Source: the human T2T-CHM13v2.0 reference genome, Homo sapiens
Length of the DNA: 64,000 nucleotides
NCBI RefSeq assembly: GCF_009914755.1
Contig: NC_060934.1
Reading direction: 5' to 3' (one strand)
Every line of letters begins with the position of its first letter. The stretch's first letter is position 1. The notes under the pieces were generated by a model, which had not been told where the DNA came from, made no database searches, and saw only the letters and a program-made list of their open reading frames with translations. A program made the translations under genes and the position numbers. This document shows positions 29,468-38,993 of the stretch, one piece after another.

Positions 29468-29856
29468 TGTCAGGCCTCTGAGCCCAAGCTAAGCCATCAT
29501 ATCCCCTGTGACCTGCACTTATACATCCAGATGGCCTGAAGCAAGTGAAGAATCACAAAAGAAGTGAAAATAGCTGGTTCCTGCCTTAACTGATGACATT
29601 ACCTTGTGAAATTACTTCTCCTGGCTCAGAAGCTCCCCCACTAAGCACCTTATGACCCCCACCACTGCCCGCCAGAGAACAACCCCCTTTGACTGTAATT
29701 TTCCATTACCTACCCAAATCCTATAAAACGGCCCCACCCCATCTCCCTTTGCTGACTCTCTTTTCGGACTCAGCCTGCCTGCACCCAACTGATTAAAAAG
29801 CTTTATTGCTCACACAAAGCCTGTTTGGAAGTTTCTTTACACGGACATGTGTGACA
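29468..29856 (+). promoter_or_regulatory. LTR7-family 5' LTR (TATA 29722-29728, polyA signal ATTAAA 29792-29797)
   Basis: TGTCAGGCCTCTGAGCCCAAG...TGACA termini. Confidence 0.95.
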
Positions 29857-29858
29857 TT

Positions 29859-29876
29859 TGGTGCCGTGACTCGGAT
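29859..29876 (+). other. Primer binding site, tRNA-His
   Basis: TGGTGCCGTGACTCGGAT, 18/18 complement of the tRNA-His 3' end. Confidence 0.96.
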
Positions 29877-30000
29877 CGGGGGACCTCCCTTGGGAGATCA
29901 ATCCCCTGTTCTCCTGCTCTTTGCTCCATGAGAAAGATCCACCTATGACCTCGGGTCCTCAGACCAACCAGCCCAAAGAACATCTCACCAATTTTAAATT

Positions 30001-30008
30001 GGGTAAGT
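30001..30008 (+). promoter_or_regulatory. HERV-H major splice donor
   Basis: GG|GTAAGT ~145 nt downstream of the 5' LTR, the known HERV-H donor position. Confidence 0.8.
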
Positions 30009-30459
30009 GGCCTCTTTTTACTCTCTTCTCCAACCTCTCTCACTATCCCTCAGCTTATTTCTCCTTTCAATTTCTGCACCACCCTTCAATCTCTCCGTTC
30101 TTTTAATTTCAATTCCTTTCCTTTTCTGGTAGAGACAGAGGAGACGCGTTTTATCCATGAACCAAAACTCTGGCATTGGTCACAGACTTGGGAGGACAGT
30201 CTTCCCTTGGTGTTTAATCACTGTGGGGACGCCTGCTTGATTATTCACCCACATTTCAGAGATGTCTGATCACCATGGGGACAGCCGCCTTGATCCTTCA
30301 CCCTTAGAGGCAAGTACCACTTTCCTGGGGGCAAGCACCCCCCACCCCTTCTCTCCACCCTGTCTTTTCTCTGGGCTTGACTCCTTCACTATAGGCAACC
30401 TTCCACCCTCCGTTCCTCCTTCTCCCTTAGCCTATGTTCTCAAGAACTTAAAACCTCTT

Positions 30460-31630
30460 CAACTCACACCTGAACTAAAACCTAAATGCCTTATTTTCTT
30501 CTGCAATACCACTTGACCCCAATACAAACTCAACAATGGTTCCAAATAGCCCAAAAACGGCACTTTTGATTTCTCCATCCTACAAGATCTAGGTAATTCT
30601 TGTTGTAAAATGGACAAATGGTCTGAGGTGCCTGACGTCCAGGCATTCTTTTACATGTTGGTCCCTCCCCAGTCTCTGTTCCCATGCAACTCGTCCCAAA
30701 TCTTCCTTCTTTCCCTCCTGCCTGTCCCCTCAGTCCCAACCTCAAGCATCGCTGAGTCTTCTCAATCTTCCTTTTCTACTGACTCATCTGACCTCTCCCC
30801 TCCTCCCCAGACTGCTCCTCAGGTCACTCCCCACCAGGCTGAATCAGGCTCTAATTCTATCTCAGCCTCTGCTCCCCCACCCTATAATCCTTCTATCACC
30901 TCCCCTCCTCACACCTGGTCTGGCTGACAGTTTTGTTCCACAACTAGCCCTCCCCAACCTGCCCAACAATTTCCTCTGAAAGAGGTGGCTGGAGCTAAAG
31001 GCATAGTCAAGGTTAATGCTCCTTTTTCTTTATCCGACCTCTCCCAAATCAGTTAGTGTTTAAGCTATTTTTCATTAAATATAAAAACCCAGTCCAGTTC
31101 ATGGCTCGTTTGGCAGCAACCCTGAGATGCTTTACAGCCCTAGACCCTGAAAGATCAGAAGGCTTAGTCTCAATATGTATTTTATTACCCAATCCGCTCC
31201 TGACATTAAATAAAGCTCCAAAAATTAAATTCCAGCCCTCAAATCCCAGAACAGGATTTAATTAACCTCGCCTTCAAGGTGTACAATAATAGAGAAGAGT
31301 TGCAATTACTTGCCTGCACTGTGAGACAAAACCCCAGCCACATCTCTGGCACACAAGAACTTCAAAATGCCTAAGCCACAATGGTCAGGCTTTCCTTCAG
31401 GACTTCCTCCCCCAGGATCTTATTTCAAGTGCCAGAAATCTGGCCACTAGGTCAACGAATGCCCACAGCCTGGGATTCCTCCTAAGCCATGTCCCATCTG
31501 TGTGGGACCCCACTGGAAATCGGACTGTCCAACTCGCCCAGCAGCCACTACCAGAGCCCCTGGAACTCTGGCCCAAGGCTCTGTGACTGACTCCTTCCCA
31601 GATCTTCTCGGCTTAGCGGCTGAAGACTGA
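30460..31630 (+). pseudogene. gag: HERV-H gag remnant
   Basis: proline-rich PPPY (ORF 30610-30927); nucleocapsid knuckles YFKCQKSGH*VNEC and CPICVGPHWKSDC at ~31421-31528; stops and frameshifts. Confidence 0.85.
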
Positions 31631-31669
31631 CACTGCCCGATCGACTCGGAAGCCTCCTGGACCATCACA

Positions 31670-33855
31670 GATGCTTTAGGTAACTCTTATATTGGAGAGT
31701 AAGTCCATCCCCTTTTTAATCAATATGGAGGCTACCCACTCCACATTACCTTCTTTTCAAGGGCCTGTTTCCTTTGCCTCCATAACTGTTGTGGGTATTG
31801 ACAGCCAGGCTTCTAAACCTCTTAAAACTCCCCAACTCTAGTGCCAACTTGGACAATATTCTTTTATGCACTCCTTTTTAGTTATCCCCACCTGCCCAGT
31901 TCTCTTATTAGGCTGAGACATTTTAACTAAATTATCTGCTCCCCTGACTATTCCTGGGCTACAGCCACTCCTCATTGCCACCCTTTTCCCCAGTTCAAAG
32001 CCTCCTTTGCATCCTCTCCTTGTACCTCCCTACCTTAATCCACAGGTATGGGACATCTCTACTCCCTCCCTGGCAACCAATCACACGCCCATTACTATCC
32101 CATTAAAACCTAATCACCCTTACCCCGCTCAACACCAATATCCCATCCCACAGCAGGCTTTAAAAGGATTAAAGCCTGTTATCACTCGCCTGTTACAGCA
32201 TGGCCTTTTAAAGCCTATAAATTCTTACAATTATCCCATTTTACCTGTCCAAAAACCAGACAAGTCTTACAGGTTATTTCAGGATCTGCGCCTTATCAAC
32301 AAAATTGTTTTGCCTGTCCACCCTGTGGTGCCCAACCTGTACACTCTTTTGTCCTCAATACCTTCCTCCACAACTCACTATTCCATTCTTGATCTTAAAG
32401 ATGCTTTTTTCACTATTCCCCTGCACCCCTCATCCCAGCCTCTCTGTGCTTTCACTTGGACTGACCCTGAAACCCATTAGCCTCAGCAACTTACCTGGGC
32501 TGTACGGCTGCAAGGCTTCACAGACAGCCCCCATTACTTCAGTCAAGCCCAAATTTCTTCCTCATCCATTACCTATCTCAGCATAATTCTTCATGAAAAC
32601 ACACGTGCTCTCCCTGCTGATCATGTCCAGCTAATCTCCCAAACCCCAACCCCTTCTACAAAACAACTCCTTTCATTCCTGGGCATGGTTAAATACTTTT
32701 GCCTTTAAATATCTGGTTTTACCATGCTAACAAACCATTATATAAACTCACACACACACACAAAAACCTAACTGACCCCATAGATCCTAAATCCTTTCCC
32801 CGCTCCACTTTCCATTCCTTGAAAAACAGCCCTAAAAGCTGCTCCCACACTAGCTCTCCCTAACCCATCCCAACCCTTTTTTCATTACACACAGCCAAAG
32901 TGCAGGTCTGTGCAGCTGGAATTCTTACACAGGAGCCAGGACCGCGCCCTGTAGCCTTTCCGTCCAAACAACTTAACCTTACTGTTTTAGCATAGCTCTC
33001 ATGTCTGCGTGCGGTGGCTGCCACTGCTTTAATACTTTCAGAGGCCCTCAAAATCACAAGCTATGCTCCACTCACTCTCTACAGTTCTCATGACTTCCAA
33101 AATCTATTTTCTTCCTCATACCTGATGCATATACTTTCTTCCCCCCTCCACTACCTCTCAGCAAGCCGAACTCATTGCCTTAGTTCAGGACCTCACTCTT
33201 GCAAAGGGACTGCAAGCCAATATTTATACTGACTCTAAATATGCCTTCCATATCCTACACCACCATGCTGTTATATGGGCTGAAAGAGGTTTTCTCCTTA
33301 CTAAAGGGTCCTCCATCATTAATGCCTCTTTAATAAGAAGTCTTCTCAATGCCACTTTACTTCCAAAGGAAGCTGGGGTCATTCACTGCAATGGCCATGA
33401 AAAGGCATCAGATCCCTTTGCTCAGGACAACACTTATGCTGATAAGGTAGCTAAAGAAGCAGCTGGTGTCCCAACTTCTGTCCCTCATGGCCAGTTTTTC
33501 TCCTTCTCATTGTCACTCCCACTTACTCTCCCACTGAAACTTCCACCTATCAATCTCTTCCCACACAAGGCAAATGGTTCTTGGACCAAGGAAAATATCT
33601 CCTTCCAGCCTCACAGGCCCATTCTATTCTGTCATCATTTTATAACCTCTTCCATGTAAGTTACACACCTCTAGCCCACCTCTTAAAACCTCTCTTTTCC
33701 TTTCCGTCGTAAAAATCTATCCTGAAAAAATCACTTCTCAGTGTTCCATCTACTATTCTACTGCTCCTCAGGAATTTCTCAGGTCCCCTCCCTTCCCTAC
33801 ACATCAAGCTCAGGGATTTGCCCCTGCCCAGGACTGGCAAATTAACTTTACTCAC
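31670..33855 (+). pseudogene. pol: HERV-H pro-pol remnant (protease, RT, RNase H, N-terminal integrase)
   Basis: ORF 32007-32480 has RT motifs PILPVQKPDKSYRLFQDLR and LDLKDAFF; no YxDD seen downstream; RNase H NIYTDSKYAF at ~33219-33248. Confidence 0.93.
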
Positions 33856-34037
33856 AGAGAACAACCCCCTTTGACTGTAATTTTCCATTACCTACCCAAA
33901 TCCTATAAAACGGCCCCACCACTATCTCCCTTCGCTGACTCTTTTTGGACTCAGCCTGCCTGCACCTAGGTGATTAAAAAGCTTTATTGCTCACATGAAA
34001 CCTGTTTGGTGGTTTCTTTACACAGACACGCATGACA
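33855..34037 (+). mobile_element. Truncated 3' LTR7 of provirus A
   Basis: matches 29673-29856; shares gtttctttacac with the 5' LTR. Confidence 0.93.
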
Positions 34038-35369
34038 GTTATACTAATGTATCTCGAATTTTCATCCAGCCTGAAAACTTCTACCTTTTATTTGGAGGGC
34101 CTATCAGAATTAATAAAATTAACAATATGCTTGAGCTTTGGCTTGCCACCTAAATGATTGTTTTCCATTTACCTTATGTTTTCTTTGATCCTATATTTCC
34201 TCTTTATCAGTCTCCATTTGGAAAAATGAATATTTTTTATTTCATTTTATTTTCATTTTTTTAGCTATTGTTGCGCTGAATTTTATTTCTAAATGTTATA
34301 AACACCACAGTGCTTTTTACACATATTTTTTAAGTTGAACAGGTAGACCTCTGAGCCCAAGCCTGCATGTGTACATCCAGTTGGCCTGAAGAAATTGGAG
34401 AATCACAAAAGAAGTGAAAATGGCCGGTTCCTGCCTTAACTGATGACATTACCTTGTGAAATTCCTTCTCCTGGCTCAGAAGTTCCCTCTACTGAACACC
34501 TTGTGACCCCCACCCCTGCCTGCAAGAGAAAAACCCCTTTTGGCTGTAATTTTCCACTACCCACCCAAATCCTATAAAACTGCCCCACCCTATCTCCCTT
34601 TGCTGACTCTCTGTTTGGACTCAGCCCACCTGCTCCCAGGTAATTAAAAAGCTTTATTGCTCACACAAAGCCTGTTGGTGGTCTCTTCACATGGACGTGC
34701 ATGACAAAATCACTTCTCAGTGTTCCATCTGCTATCCTCAAGGATTTCTCAGGCTCCCTCCTTTCCCTACACATCAAACTCAAAGATTTGCCCCTGCTCA
34801 AAACTGGCAAATTAACTTTACTCACATGCCCCAAATCAAAAACCTAAAATACCTCTTAGTCTAAAAAACCACTTTCACTAAATAAATAAAGGCCTTTCCC
34901 ACAGGGTCTGAGAAGGCCACTGTGGTCATTTCTTCCCTTCTGTCAGACATAATTCACTTTCTTACTTGGCCCCAACTTCGTCCCAGACACCAGCCCTCTA
35001 GGCAACTATCTTCCCGTCCTTCAGCAGGCTAAACAAAAAATTCACCAGGCTGCTACTCTTCTCTTGCCTACTCCAGATTCCCAGCCATATAAAAACAAAC
35101 GCTAGCTAAACAATCAGTTCTTGTTACAAATCTAACCTCTCAAACTCTACAACCTCGATAGACCAGATCCTACCTAGTCATCTATAATACTCCAATTGCC
35201 TTCTGCCTACAGGACCTTCCCCATTGATTCACGGTTCCAAAATACAACTGTGTCCATCGGACAGCCAGCCTGTTCTCTCCTCTTCCTCCTAAAAGTCACA
35301 AGTACTCTCCCCTACTTCCCTTAAACTCACTCACATTTCTAAAAAGCAATAATAACCGTTATAAGCCTA

Positions 35370-36156
35370 ATACATCCCTTCATTCTATTAGGTCTATTCA
35401 TCCTTACCCTACTTTTTGCAACAGGGCTTTATGCAGTCACCCCTACTACTGTGCCCCAAAATCTTGTCATCCCTACTATCTTCTTTCTAGTCACACTCCT
35501 ATTCACCATTCTCAACTGCTTGTAAATGCCCTGCTCTTGTTTACACTGCCGGTTTACACTTTTCCTCCAAACCATCATAACTAATATCTCCTGGTTTTAC
35601 CTCAAACTGCCACCCTTAGGTCTCTCTTAAAATAAATAAAAAATCTTCAGTAACAAAATACACTCCAATACTTTCAACCTAATAAAGTCCTATTCTTTTG
35701 TACTTCTTCTCATTCTCGTTCTTATGCCACCCTCTACCTCTCCCCAGCTATCTCCACCACACTATCAATCTCACTCACTCTCTCCTAGCTGTTTCTAATC
35801 CTTCTTTACCAAACAATTGCTGGCTTTACATTTCTCTTTCCTCCAAAATCGCCAAAGTCTCAACTAACTCACTACAAAACAAACAAACAAAAAAACCCTC
35901 TATATTTTTAATTAAAAAATATTTTTACCTAAACCAACCTAACCTAATATATGATAACATAAAAAAACTCAAAAATAAAGACCCAAAACTCGCCAACCAA
36001 ACAAATAATCACACTATACCCCCTTAAACACTCTCTAATTAAATGTCCTGGGTCCCCCCAATTCTTAGTCCTTTAATACCTGTTTTTCTCCTACTCTTAT
36101 TCAAACCTTGTGTCTTCCGTTTAGTATCTCAATTCATACCAGGCCATCACCAATCA

Positions 36157-36189
<33 letters not shown>

Positions 36190-36300
36190 GGAGTCTCACT
36201 CTGCCGCCCAGGCTGGAGGGCAGTGGCATGAGCCAATCATTCTATACAACAAATGCTCCCTCTAACAACCCCACAATATCACCCCTTACTCCAAAATCTT
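35370..36300 (+). pseudogene. env: HERV-H env remnant (TM region)
   Basis: ctccaaaatcgc (LQNR, immunosuppressive domain start) and FYLNQPNLIYDNIKKLK in ORF 35698-36027. Confidence 0.75.
36159..36232 (-). mobile_element. Severely 5'-truncated Alu in env remnant
   Basis: poly-T plus ~47 nt of Alu 3' end; TSD CCAATCATT at 36150-36158 and 36233-36241. Confidence 0.9.
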
Positions 36301-36699
36301 TCTTCAGTTTAATCTCTCCCACTCTAGGTTCCCACACCGCTCCTAATCCCCTTCAAAACTGCCCTAAGAAACATCACCCATTATCTCTCAATACCACCCC
36401 CAAAAATTTTTGCCGCTGCAACACTTCACCACTATTTTGTTTTGTTTTTCTTATTAATATAAAAAGACAGAAGAGTTAATTTTCATATTAAGAGAAAAAA
36501 CCTAGGGAAGTTATACCTTGTGCTTAAATATTTGTCTTTTATGGTCCTCTTTGATTCTTTTGTAGATCTAAGTTTCCAATGGGTTAGATTTTCTTTCTGT
36601 AAAATACTGCTATTTATTATTTTTGGCAATGTATTATTGCTAGTGAACAATTTACTCAGCTTTTGTTTTGAAAAGTTTTTTTGACGGTGTTCGTCAGAT

Positions 36700-36965
36700 G
36701 ACTAGTTAATTTGTGGTTACAAAGACCCAGCCCCCTTGACACAATTTTAGAAAACATTTAATTGCTGTTTCTCCTCCAGATATCCCTTGGGCTTATGGGT
36801 ATAGGAAGATCTGCCTTCTGCCTATGTCATATTTACCTCTTCTTCCCCCTTATGCTATTTCCATTGCTCTTGTACAGTTTTTCGATCCCAAGGATACTGT
36901 GCAATAACTTTCTGCACTCAAATCCCTAACTCAGCTTCTGTTGCCTAAGGAATCCAACTTAAGAT
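36700..36965 (+). mobile_element. LTR16-like ERVL LTR fragment
   Basis: caataactttctgcactcaaatcc...ctcagcttctg...ggaatccaacttaagata 3' end. Confidence 0.55.
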
Positions 36966-37193
36966 AATGAGTTTAAAAGAATGCCAGTGCATATGTAGAT
37001 TTAGTATTCAAATATAGTACTTTCACAGATTCATACAAAAATCATAAACAGCCACAAACACTCACAAGTATTTATATTTGTATATTTATATGTGTATGTA
37101 TGTGTACTTTTGCCTGCCAAAGATTTTTAAATTCTCATACATTTTTGATTGACATCATGCTTAATTCCAATAAACCTTATCAGAGTAAACGGG

Positions 37194-37807
37194 TGTAATC
37201 TGAAATACCAACATAAACACTCCTTTATCAACTAAGACAGACCCAAAGGTTAAGGAAACAAGGGTACCAACAGGTCCAAGGTTCAGAGCCTGGCTGGCCT
37301 GGCAAATCTCTAAATTCTTATGGCTAAACTCCCTAACAATAGGAGCTATCAGCTCTGATTTACAACACAGTCACTACAACTCTGATGGGACAAAGGACCA
37401 GCCTTACAAAAATTCGCTTCAGATAAGCTACTGCAGACCTTAAGCCAGTTTCAACCAGCTTATATGGGCTACACAGTCTTTGTATCCTATAGTTTCCCTT
37501 TTGTCCTACAGTCAAATTCCACTTCATTTTAATGCTGAGACCCTGCCTTGAAATGAACATGAAATGTATGTTACATACATGTCTACCCACCATGCATGGA
37601 CTCAGCTCCCATCATAAATATGCATAGCTTTTGTCCCAAACCTGCTGAATGTGTGTGATACCAACTTTGTGAGGCATAAAACCTAACCTGTCTTTCCCCT
37701 CTTCAAAGAGAGAGGTGGAGACTTTCTCTTTCCAGCCTGCAAACCAGTATCACCAGAAAAGCTCTCCTTTCTACTATTTAGCCATTCTGGTGGTCCTTCA
37801 GGTGACA
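37194..37807 (+). mobile_element. MER39-like ERV1 solo LTR
   Basis: TG...CA termini; ggttaaggaaacaa...ggcaaatctctaaattc; aagctctcctttctactatttagccat. Confidence 0.7.
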
Positions 37808-38993
37808 GGGATATTAAGCTTTATGTATAGTTTTATTAAACATCTCTGATAAAGCTCACTGTTATGAACACTTCAAATTTTGAGGACCATGTTCTTTCCC
37901 TAACTCAAATCTCAACTTATCTTTCATTCATAGCTTCCTTTAATTTCTATATTAGTTTTGATGCTCCAATATCTTAGATATAGTCTTAAATTGTAGATAT
38001 CACATTCTGCTAGAATTTCAAGTGTGACAACAGTGAACTCTGTGGCTCCATGATAGTTCTTACAGGAGAGTGGATACGCACCCTTAGGAAGCCCAGAGGG
38101 AATTTTCAATTGTTACTATGTTAAAGTGTTGAGATGACCACACCCCTATCTCATTTGTCTCTAATAAACTTTACAAATTTAACTTATATGGCCATAAAAT
38201 TATTTTATTTGTTTATACCTGATACTTTTTATAGGAATGCTTAAATTCCACTGATGCACATAACTTTCACAATTCGATATACATTCATTATATGTGTTTG
38301 TATTTATATATATATATAATTTTAAGTTTAATATAATGAACACAATCAGAATGTCAATTAACTTATGACTAAATTGCCATTACATTGTGTTCATTAATGA
38401 TATTACCTTGTGTTCATTTCTATTCTGAATGTCTTATTTATTATATAATTATACTAATACTGCTAAATTATAATTTTCATATTAGTTGTAACAAATTTGT
38501 AATTCATTTTGGAGTACTTAAAGTATTTCTCAGAAGAATAAAGAAACTGAAGTCGGAGAAATTAATTAAAAGACTACTTAATTAATCAAGAGGTCAGGGT
38601 AAAAATAAACAGCAAGGAATTGATAAGTTTAAGATACCTATGAGTGCCCTACTTTCTAACGTATTTATAGGTTTCACAGACTTTTTAAATATACAATTAT
38701 ACATAGGCTATTGAATTGGCCACTGCATACCTGAGCATTAAAATAATGATATGCTACCTGGATATAAAAACTTACCTTAGTAAGTTTTACTAAGGCAACA
38801 CTGACCTCACAATGAGTGGACCAGGGAAATACAATTAATTGTCCACATGGAAGCTAGGAAGATATTTCTAAAATGATTAAGATGTTGTGATTTAATAAAG
38901 AGACCAAGCAAGTTCTCACAGTACCCCATCTTTGTTTAGCATTTTTCCTGTTTTATGTGCTGAATCCTTATATATGAATTCATTTATAGATAA

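What the first reader, a model, noticed from the sequence alone, without database searches (positions are those of the whole stretch)
34707..36470. APOBEC3-type G-to-A hypermutation of HERV-H element B
Seen: against the homologous integrase of provirus A, CAAGCT becomes CAAACT, CAGGGAT becomes CAAAGAT and CAGGACT becomes CAAAACT. The stretch 35881-36000 has only 3 G in 120 nt. Against the recalled consensus, ACTGGATGGGTAGAGG reads ACTAAATAAATAAAGG, so Trp codons became stops. The LTR keeps most of its GG. Known: APOBEC3 deaminates minus-strand cDNA, giving plus-strand G-to-A in GG/GA context with a peak upstream of the PPT. Inference: this copy was edited before insertion; both GG and GA contexts appear affected.
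Basis: partly seen in the sequence, partly recalled or inferred. Interest (0 to 1): 0.7.

Follow-up and report, generated by a model that had tools for sequence, protein, structure and literature searches.

The report
APOBEC3-edited HERV-H fragment, chromosome 10
A broken piece of an ancient human endogenous retrovirus has about four in ten of its G bases turned to A, the scar left by a host antiviral DNA-editing enzyme; such scars are already known in other endogenous retroviruses, so this is a clear but ordinary example with an odd one-LTR structure.

Summary
I compared 34707-36470 with 19 other HERV-H copies from the same genome. At 188 sites where at least 75% of those copies carry G, this element has A at 78 (41%). 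C-to-T is 22 of 508, A-to-G 3 of 396 and T-to-C 11 of 474 (Fisher p about 3e-31, unchanged without CpG).

The changes are private: none of 43 copies shares most of them. The adjoining LTR (2 of 56), neighbouring provirus A (32 of 496) and an Alu fragment inserted into the element are not edited.

The footprint is GA-type, not GG-type. GG sites are hit only when the next G also became A (16 of 17, against 5 of 25). A at +2 also favours editing. This points to a TC-preferring APOBEC3 acting on minus-strand cDNA, not to APOBEC3G.

The editing peak lies 0.4-0.9 kb upstream of the polypurine tract, not directly against it.

Element B is not a canonical provirus. It has one LTR, which ends at the processed CA and joins directly to the integrase region. 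Its right end stops at the polypurine tract, with no 3' LTR and no target duplication.

This is a known kind of event in a new locus. Interest is modest.

The parts
29469..29858 (+). Provirus A, 5' LTR. Not edited; serves as a control.
   Evidence: Self-BLAST and mapping to full-length copies. Sequence read. G-to-A 3 of 60. The flank GTTAC immediately precedes it.
29859..33856 (+). Provirus A internal region, from the primer-binding site to the integrase. It stops in the integrase and jumps into the 3' part of an LTR.
   Evidence: Colinear with L023 2790-7052. G-to-A 32 of 496 against C-to-T 48 of 1222. The 3' part, 32359-33856, is mildly raised: 18 of 169 against 13 of 449.
33857..34037 (+). 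Provirus A, 3' LTR fragment. Only the last ~180 nt are present. It ends in CA and is followed by GTTAT, which matches 4 of 5 bases of the 5' flank GTTAC and is a likely target-site duplication.
   Evidence: G-to-A 1 of 22.
34038..34344 (.). 307-nt AT-rich spacer between A and B. It is single-copy DNA.
   Evidence: The genome search found only the spacer itself plus one 42-nt partial match.
34345..34706 (+). Element B, its only LTR (short variant). Unedited. It ends at CA and lacks both the two further bases and the primer-binding site that follow the 5' LTR in A.
   Evidence: G-to-A 2 of 56. The last 67 nt are 93-98% identical to other LTR ends in all but one (89%) of the 39 other scored matches, and none of the 39 continues across the junction.
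34707..36158 (+). Element B, internal part 1 (integrase core, then the env remnant). This is the hypermutated stretch.
   Evidence: G-to-A 74 of 173 against C-to-T 16 of 426. Weak Pfam rve hit when read with X at the stops: E 0.002, 18.8 bits, below the 32.6 cut-off. Six stops in the first 174 codons of the integrase frame.
35607..36056 (+). Zone of heaviest editing within B.
   Evidence: 31 of 45 G sites edited, against 20.4 expected from +1 context. It includes 35881-36000, which has 3 G in 120 nt.
36159..36232 (-). 5'-truncated Alu fragment with a T-run, inserted into B after it arrived. It is flanked by the 9-nt duplication CCAATCATT. Not edited.
   Evidence: Sequence. There is a 9-nt overlap of subject coordinates in the alignments. 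Pooled differences over 19 listed matches in the window (about 13 true Alu copies; the rest are T-run matches or very weak ones): G-to-A 27, C-to-T 22, A-to-G 18, T-to-C 30.
36233..36470 (+). Element B, internal part 2. It runs to the polypurine tract, where homology to other copies ends. No 3' LTR follows.
   Evidence: Eight other copies continue into their LTR at this point, while B diverges into single-copy DNA. G-to-A 4 of 12.

Best explanation
Element B (34345-36470) is a defective HERV-H insertion. It consists of one LTR joined directly to the last ~1.7 kb of the internal region (integrase core to polypurine tract).

I infer that a TC-preferring APOBEC3 cytidine deaminase edited B's minus-strand cDNA during the round of reverse transcription that produced this insertion. 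The C-to-U changes on the minus strand were then copied as plus-strand G-to-A. The result is about 41% of G sites changed: about 75% where an A follows at +1, about 63% where A is at +2 only, and about 13% elsewhere.

Runs such as GGA became AAA. The likely reason is that once the downstream C is deaminated, the next C gains a U (read as T) as its 5' neighbour.

The LTR escaped editing, probably because that part of the minus strand is made double-stranded first. The edited DNA then entered the germ line, was later hit by an Alu, and has since decayed at the ordinary rate.

Shown here: the asymmetry, its context, its privacy to this copy, and its boundaries.
Inferred: the enzyme class, the timing (before insertion), and the reason the LTR was spared.
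For: - Strand asymmetry: G-to-A 78 of 188 against C-to-T 22 of 508, A-to-G 3 of 396 and T-to-C 11 of 474.
- Not CpG-driven: 76 of 186 outside CpG.
- Context: A at +1 gives 44 of 59; A at +2 only gives 15 of 24; no A at +1 or +2 gives 11 of 87. GR against GY, p 7e-7.
- GG is edited only together with its downstream G: 16 of 17 against 5 of 25.
- Privacy: at the 78 sites, 0-3 of 19 copies share the A. Among 43 copies the best sharer is 13 of 35, and that copy also has A at 9 of 54 sites where B kept G. The best whole-genome match to B is 83-87% identical.
- Controls: B's LTR 2 of 56; A's internal region 32 of 496; A's LTRs 3 of 60 and 1 of 22. The other 19 copies are at 2-12%. The Alu insert is symmetric.
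- B's other substitution classes are at the same level as in the other copies, so B is old and is exceptional only in G-to-A.
- Published background: minus-strand editing in TC/CC contexts, with gradients that follow the time the strand stays single-stranded (PMC1635257, abstract read). G-to-A strand bias and hypermutated copies in human ERVs, in GG or GA contexts (PMC6955324 and PMC4866542, passages read).
Against: - The positional profile is not a smooth rise to the polypurine tract. Observed against expected in five bins: 22/23.5, 16/18.9, 5/8.2, 31/20.4, 4/7.0.
- Unfavoured contexts are still at about 13-15% in B. In the other copies the overall G-to-A rate is about 2-12%.
- B lacks a 3' LTR and a target duplication, so an ordinary integration cannot be assumed.
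- The onset of editing coincides exactly with a rearrangement junction (34706/34707). A post-insertion single-strand-damage model would also predict that.
- No orthologous locus or empty site from another primate could be examined, so timing relative to insertion is not directly shown.
- The enzyme cannot be identified from the sequence alone.
- The comparison set is 19-43 copies chosen by similarity, not the whole family.
Confidence: 0.85

Rival explanations
1. Post-insertion editing. The G-to-A cluster was made on chromosomal DNA, when the minus strand to the right of a break at 34706/34707 was exposed by resection or break-induced replication and deaminated by a nuclear TC-type APOBEC3 (a kataegis-like event). 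The same event would have created the LTR-to-integrase junction.
For: - Editing starts abruptly at the junction: LTR 2 of 56, then 74 of 173.
- The polarity is the one expected for the 3'-ended strand to the right of a break.
- The footprint is TC-type rather than APOBEC3G-type.
- The junction is unique among the 40 matches scored, out of 2245 candidates.
Against: - Density is about one change per 22 nt. Favoured sites are 67-91% saturated, and editing continues over the whole 1.7 kb. That is typical of virion-packaged editing and far above what I recall for germline or tumour clusters (recalled, not tested).
- Both ends of the edited segment sit on reverse-transcription landmarks: the processed LTR end and the polypurine tract. 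A chromosomal break has no reason to respect these.
- The flanking single-copy DNA is not visibly G-depleted: C 199 and G 158 in 36471-37470, against C 530 and G 139 in B.
Confidence: 0.06
2. Inherited editing. The deamination happened one or more replication cycles earlier. B would then be a descendant of an already edited genome that was mobilised in trans, rather than the molecule that was edited.
For: - HERV-H is generally held to have spread largely as defective copies complemented in trans (recalled). A genome with stop codons could therefore still be copied.
- Nothing in the sequence separates one cycle from two.
Against: - No sibling was found. At the 78 sites, 0-3 of 19 copies share the A, and none of 43 copies shares most of them.
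- The best genome-wide identity to B is 83-87%. Only 40 of 1261 candidates were scored.
Confidence: 0.06
3. Reverse-transcriptase misincorporation under a skewed dNTP pool. Low dCTP would favour G:T mispairs during minus-strand synthesis and give G-to-A mainly in GA context, with no deaminase involved.
For: - The GA-biased context is the context historically ascribed to this mechanism (recalled, not read here).
Against: - The LTR made in the same reaction is untouched: 2 of 56.
- There is a strong +2 effect, and the coupled editing of GG runs (16 of 17 against 5 of 25) fits sequential deamination better than misincorporation.
- Since the discovery of APOBEC3, this mechanism is no longer the accepted cause of retroviral hypermutation (recalled).
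Confidence: 0.02

Closest known systems
APOBEC3-hypermutated HERV-K(HML-2) proviruses (Lee, Malim and Bieniasz 2008; Armitage et al. 2008). Both are known to me only through citations in PMC4335370 and PMC3576619, where I read passages.
   Same: An individual endogenous provirus carries a dense, plus-strand, copy-private G-to-A excess that is attributed to editing of minus-strand cDNA before endogenisation.
   Different: According to the PMC3576619 passage, those loci carry mainly an APOBEC3G (GG) footprint and to a lesser extent APOBEC3F. Here GG is not an independent target. The element here is a gammaretrovirus-like HERV-H, much older, and it is a one-LTR fragment rather than a full provirus.
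Genome-wide catalogues of edited or 'ultra-edited' LTR elements and G-to-A strand bias in human ERVs (Knisbacher and Levanon 2016, PMC4866542; Ito et al. 2020, PMC6955324). Passages read.
   Same: The signal and test logic are the same: G-to-A against its complement, a strand bias, and a GA or GG motif in primates. ERV1-class elements are among those reported as edited.
   Different: I could not find this locus, or HERV-H by name, in the supplementary files that could be searched. For PMC4866542 one file was not searchable and another was cut when stored. For PMC6955324 nine files were searched. So whether this copy is already listed is open.
Hypermutated HIV-1 proviruses with editing gradients (Suspene et al. 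2006, PMC1635257, abstract read).
   Same: TC/CC-context editing of the minus strand. Intensity is related to how long the strand stays single-stranded. The LTR is spared here (inference for this element).
   Different: In HIV the maxima lie just 5' of each polypurine tract. Here the maximum is 0.4-0.9 kb upstream, and the last 0.4 kb has too few favoured sites to judge.
Sub-genomic circular by-products of retroviral DNA synthesis: autointegration circles, and 1-LTR circles formed from interrupted reverse transcription (review PMC3148978, passages read).
   Same: B has one LTR. Its LTR end is the processed CA joined to an internal viral site. Its two outer ends map to one point of the viral genome, the junction between the polypurine tract and U3.
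   Different: Those forms are described as unintegrated dead ends, whereas B is chromosomal. No example of such a form fixed in a germ line was read here.

Membership tests
APOBEC3-hypermutated retroviral DNA | Large excess of plus-strand G-to-A over C-to-T and over the reverse change | tested here: met
   78 of 188 against 22 of 508, with A-to-G 3 of 396. Holds in all 19 pairwise comparisons.
APOBEC3-hypermutated retroviral DNA | Excess not explained by CpG decay | tested here: met
   76 of 186 outside CpG against 22 of 506, p 2.8e-30.
APOBEC3-hypermutated retroviral DNA | Preferred dinucleotide context (GA and/or GG on the plus strand) | tested here: met
   GA 32 of 47 against GC 13 of 52 and GT 9 of 41. 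GR against GY, p 7e-7.
APOBEC3-hypermutated retroviral DNA | Changes private to one copy (made in one replication cycle), not a clade character | tested here: met
   0-3 of 19 copies share each A. None of 43 copies shares most of them. The sample is limited to the copies that were scored and fetched.
APOBEC3-hypermutated retroviral DNA | Editing follows single-strand exposure: the LTR is spared and editing rises towards the polypurine tract | tested here: inconclusive
   The LTR is spared, 2 of 56. But the profile is not monotonic and the last 0.4 kb has only 20 G sites.
APOBEC3-hypermutated retroviral DNA | Editing preceded chromosomal insertion | not testable with these tools
   This needs orthologous and empty-site sequences from other primates. 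The only indirect support is that the LTR, the flanks and the Alu insert are unedited.
APOBEC3G-type footprint (GG to AG) | The 5' G of GG is edited irrespective of what happens to the 3' G | tested here: not met
   GG sites whose +1 G was kept: 5 of 25 edited. This equals GC/GT at 22 of 93 (p 0.79).
Canonical integrase-made provirus (for element B) | Two LTRs flanked by a short target-site duplication | tested here: not met
   No LTR homology after 36470. No matching 4-5 nt at the two flanks. Provirus A, by contrast, has GTTAC / GTTAT.
HERV-H (LTR7 / tRNA-His primer-binding-site family) | Family-specific LTR and a primer-binding site complementary to tRNA-His | not tested
No tool here names repeat families. 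More than 1200 candidate homologues in the genome fit a large ERV family.
Retroviral integrase (Pfam rve) for 34709-35230 | Match to the integrase core profile above the curated cut-off | tested here: inconclusive
   B: E 0.002, 18.8 bits. Unedited copy L003: E 2.8e-7, 31.1 bits. Both are below the 32.6-bit cut-off.

The most novel reading that the evidence does not exclude
Element B may not be a degraded provirus. It may be a fossil of a dead-end by-product of reverse transcription: a sub-genomic one-LTR circle that was opened at the plus-strand origin (polypurine tract | U3) and captured in the germ-line chromosome by end joining rather than by integrase. The circle itself would have formed either when the processed U5 end integrated into the virus's own integrase-coding region (autointegration) or by closure of a truncated cDNA.

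Heavy APOBEC3 editing of that same molecule would then be mechanistically linked to the failed replication. It would preserve a snapshot, some tens of millions of years old, of restriction in action.
Probability: 0.3. Interest if true: 0.55.

Novelty: new member of a known kind. Interest (0 to 1): 0.33.

Why it matters
The locus is a clean, strongly significant, single-locus record of APOBEC3 restriction of HERV-H, a family now studied mostly for its role in pluripotent cells. Its footprint is TC-type (GA and GxA) rather than APOBEC3G-type. That adds a data point on which deaminases acted on gammaretrovirus-like invaders in early catarrhines.

The phenomenon itself is well documented, for HERV-K loci and in genome-wide scans of human ERVs. 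The main value is therefore as an annotated example.

The less ordinary aspect is the architecture: one LTR, a processed CA end joined to an internal site, and both outer ends at the polypurine-tract/U3 point. If confirmed by comparative genomics, it would show that unintegrated by-products of edited reverse transcripts can reach the germ line.

Tried and rejected
- **Same viral DNA or a duplication of A: rejected.** In the ~130-nt overlap each copy carries its own point changes. B's LTR has the short variant, shared with L002, L003 and L005, while A's 5' LTR has the long one. B's LTR is no closer to A's LTRs (86-88%) than to unrelated copies (up to 91%).
- **Spliced-RNA origin of the LTR-to-integrase junction: rejected.** The junction lies at the very end of the LTR, where there is no donor-like GT.
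- **A clade sharing the junction: not found.** The 39 other scored matches, out of 2245 candidates, all stop at the LTR end.
- **Test of whether the 307-nt spacer and the 3' flank were once contiguous, using paralogous repeats: not possible.** Both are single-copy.
- **Bug.** Its GC-context column was wrong because of a key collision in my script. The corrected figures are, and only and later figures are used.
- **Literature.**
  - Four searches found no paper in the held library that describes a hypermutated HERV-H locus.
  - Anwar et al. 2013 is not held.
  - The supplement searches for HERVH/LTR7 gave nothing relevant. One file was unsearchable and one was cut when stored.
- **Pfam on the raw translation:** I repeated it with X at each stop.
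Full report
**What is in the window**

Self-comparison and mapping onto three full-length relatives fetched from the same genome show two adjacent retroviral elements on the + strand.

Provirus A runs from 29469 to 34037:
- a 5' LTR at 29469-29858;
- an internal region from the primer-binding site to the integrase, 29859-33856;
- a jump into the last ~180 nt of an LTR, 33857-34037.

A's flanks read GTTAC and GTTAT, a likely target-site duplication.

A 307-nt single-copy spacer follows.

Element B starts with an LTR at 34345-34706. That LTR is joined directly to internal sequence homologous to the integrase core, and B continues to the polypurine tract at 36470. It is interrupted only by a 74-nt Alu fragment with a T-run (36159-36232), flanked by a 9-nt duplication. 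After 36470 there is no LTR, only single-copy DNA.

No tool used here names repeat families.

**Check of the observation**

- the three G-to-A differences against A's integrase;
- 3 G in 120 nt at 35881-36000;
- the 16-mer at 34877, where 6 of 15 aligned copies carry exactly the G-rich version and the rest are close variants;
- Trp codons read as stops in the integrase frame;
- an LTR that keeps its G.

**Size of the effect**

A search of the window's own genome with 34707-36130 returned 73 matches from 40 scored candidates out of 1261. The best were 83-87% identical. I used the 19 fetched copies as references, one at a time.

| Change (per pairwise comparison) | Range over 19 copies |
|---|---|
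| G in the copy, A in B | 63-99 |
| A in the copy, G in B | 9-23 |
| C-to-T | 26-45 |
| T-to-C | 23-44 |

At the site level I considered only columns where at least 75% of at least six copies agree.

| Change in B (site level) | Count |
|---|---|
| G-to-A | 78 of 188 |
| C-to-T | 22 of 508 |
| A-to-G | 3 of 396 |
| T-to-C | 11 of 474 |

G-to-A against C-to-T gives an odds ratio of 15.7 and p 2.7e-31. Outside CpG the result is the same: 76 of 186 against 22 of 506.

In a leave-one-out run over all 20 copies, B stands at 41% and the other 19 at 2-12%. Only L005 is mildly raised: 21 of 181 against 24 of 503, p 0.003.

**Boundaries and controls (unless stated)**
- B's own LTR: 2 of 56.
- A's internal region: 32 of 496.
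- A's 5' LTR: 3 of 60.
- A's 3' LTR fragment: 1 of 22.
- The Alu fragment inside B differs from the other Alus in the window symmetrically: G-to-A 27, C-to-T 22, A-to-G 18, T-to-C 30, pooled over the listed matches.

B's other substitution classes are at the level of the other copies. B is therefore as old as they are, and only its G-to-A class is abnormal.

**Private or inherited**

At the 78 sites, 29 are shared by no other copy, 31 by one, 12 by two and 6 by three of the 19.

With 43 copies, the best sharer has the A at 13 of 35 aligned sites. That copy also has A at 9 of 54 sites where B kept G, so it looks independently G-to-A enriched rather than a sibling.

No clade shares the edits in the sample available. 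The sample is not the whole family.

**Context**

By the +1 base seen in the other copies:

| Context | Edited |
|---|---|
| GA | 32 of 47 |
| GG | 21 of 42 |
| GC | 13 of 52 |
| GT | 9 of 41 |

Splitting the GG sites changes the reading. Where the downstream G stayed G, 5 of 25 are edited, which is indistinguishable from GC/GT at 22 of 93 (p 0.79). Where the downstream G also became A, 16 of 17 are edited.

Classed by the bases now present in B:

| Bases in B after the G site | Edited |
|---|---|
| A at +1 | 44 of 59 |
| A at +2 only | 15 of 24 |
| No A at +1 or +2 | 11 of 87 |

C at +2 is strongly disfavoured: GCC 1 of 23 and GTC 1 of 16.

On the minus strand this is a 5'-TC / 5'-TNC preference, with U acting as T once a neighbour has been deaminated. 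It is not the CC preference of APOBEC3G.

Which TC-type enzyme acted cannot be told from sequence. The GxA component resembles the motif reported for rodent APOBEC3 (PMC4866542, passage). I note this only as a resemblance.

**Position**

Observed against context-expected edits:

| Interval | Observed | Expected |
|---|---|---|
| 34707-35006 | 22 | 23.5 |
| 35007-35306 | 16 | 18.9 |
| 35307-35606 | 5 | 8.2 |
| 35607-36056 | 31 | 20.4 |
| 36057-36470 | 4 | 7.0 |

There is a real hot zone 0.4-0.9 kb upstream of the polypurine tract. The last 0.4 kb has only 20 G sites, mostly in poor contexts. The HIV-like maximum directly 5' of the tract (PMC1635257, abstract) is therefore neither shown nor excluded.

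**Most likely mechanism**

A TC-preferring APOBEC3, carried into the particle, deaminated the minus-strand cDNA during the reverse transcription that produced this DNA. Plus-strand synthesis fixed the changes as G-to-A. The LTR, which is made double-stranded early, escaped. I put this at about 0.85.

Rivals:
- Chromosomal single-strand editing next to the breakpoint at 34706/34707. It fits the abrupt onset and the TC footprint. It does not fit the density, the near-saturation of favoured sites, or the coincidence of the segment's ends with reverse-transcription landmarks (0.06).
- Editing in an earlier cycle, with B as a trans-mobilised descendant (0.06).
- dNTP-pool misincorporation (0.02).

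**Architecture of B**

Three landmarks stand out.
1. The LTR begins within about 4 nt of the normal U3 start.
2. The LTR ends at CA and is joined to the integrase zinc-finger/core region. After A's 5' LTR, two further bases and the primer-binding site follow the CA. In B both are missing. This junction is unique among the 40 scored matches of 2245 candidates.
3. The right end lies within about 10 nt of the polypurine-tract/U3 boundary, the point at which eight other copies run on into their LTR.

No target duplication is visible.

A processed CA end joined to an internal viral site is what autointegration produces, and sub-genomic one-LTR circles are known by-products of retroviral DNA synthesis (PMC3148978, passages). 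Opened at the plus-strand origin, such a circle would give exactly B's order of parts.

This is an inference, at about 0.3. The plain alternative is a provirus with an internal deletion that later lost its 3' LTR. That alternative requires two breakpoints to fall on landmarks by chance.

**Relation between A and B**

A lacks the internal region from the integrase onwards plus the first ~185 nt of its 3' LTR. B consists of an LTR plus the internal region from a point 130 nt upstream of A's breakpoint. The two contents are nearly complementary.

I found no sequence evidence that they come from one molecule:
- their point changes in the overlap are independent;
- their LTRs differ by a ~25-nt indel that also separates other copies;
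- B's LTR is no closer to A's LTRs than to unrelated ones.

Why two HERV-H elements lie 307 nt apart remains unexplained.

**What is known**

Hypermutated HERV-K loci and genome-wide G-to-A strand bias in human ERVs, with GG or GA contexts, are in print. I found no paper in the held library that describes a hypermutated HERV-H locus, and no HERV-H entry in the searchable supplements (one file was unsearchable, one was cut when stored). Anwar et al. 2013 could not be read.

**Verdict**

This is a new example of a known kind. The footprint is clear and TC-type, and the insertion architecture is unusual.

Noticed in passing
29469-36470: Proviruses A and B lie 307 nt apart in the same orientation, and their contents are nearly complementary. 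A stops in the integrase and lacks the rest up to the middle of its 3' LTR. B is an LTR plus the internal region starting 130 nt upstream of A's stop. No sequence evidence ties them to one molecule, and the adjacency is unexplained.
   Followed up: partly
32359-33856: The 3' internal part of provirus A has a mild G-to-A excess: 18 of 169 against C-to-T 13 of 449, p 2.5e-4. It falls mainly where A follows the G (9 of 36). Several of these A's are shared with 5-7 other copies. A's 5' part shows none (14 of 329 against 35 of 770).
   Followed up: partly
L005 (G000:C23:72233911-72238086); L041 (G000:C13:96848410-96854204): Two other HERV-H copies look mildly G-to-A enriched. L005 has 21 of 181 against C-to-T 24 of 503. 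L041 has A at 13 of 35 of B's edited sites and at 9 of 54 of B's unedited G sites.
   Followed up: no
36150-36241: A 74-nt 5'-truncated Alu fragment lies in antisense orientation with a ~27-nt T-run. It is flanked by a 9-nt duplication (CCAATCATT). It was inserted into B and is not G-to-A edited.
   Followed up: yes
37194-37808: An old interspersed repeat (about 40 scored copies, 69-79% identical) makes up most of the RefSeq 'enhancer' feature at 37046-37798. The DNA between B and this repeat is single-copy.
   Followed up: no
33850-33860: The deletion junction in provirus A (integrase to the middle of the LTR) shows a 2-nt microhomology, CA.
   Followed up: no
29490-29515 and 34365-34372; L002-L009 3' LTR starts: An indel of about 25 nt near the LTR start separates a long LTR form (A, L004, L006-L009) from a short form (B, L002, L003, L005).
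   Followed up: partly
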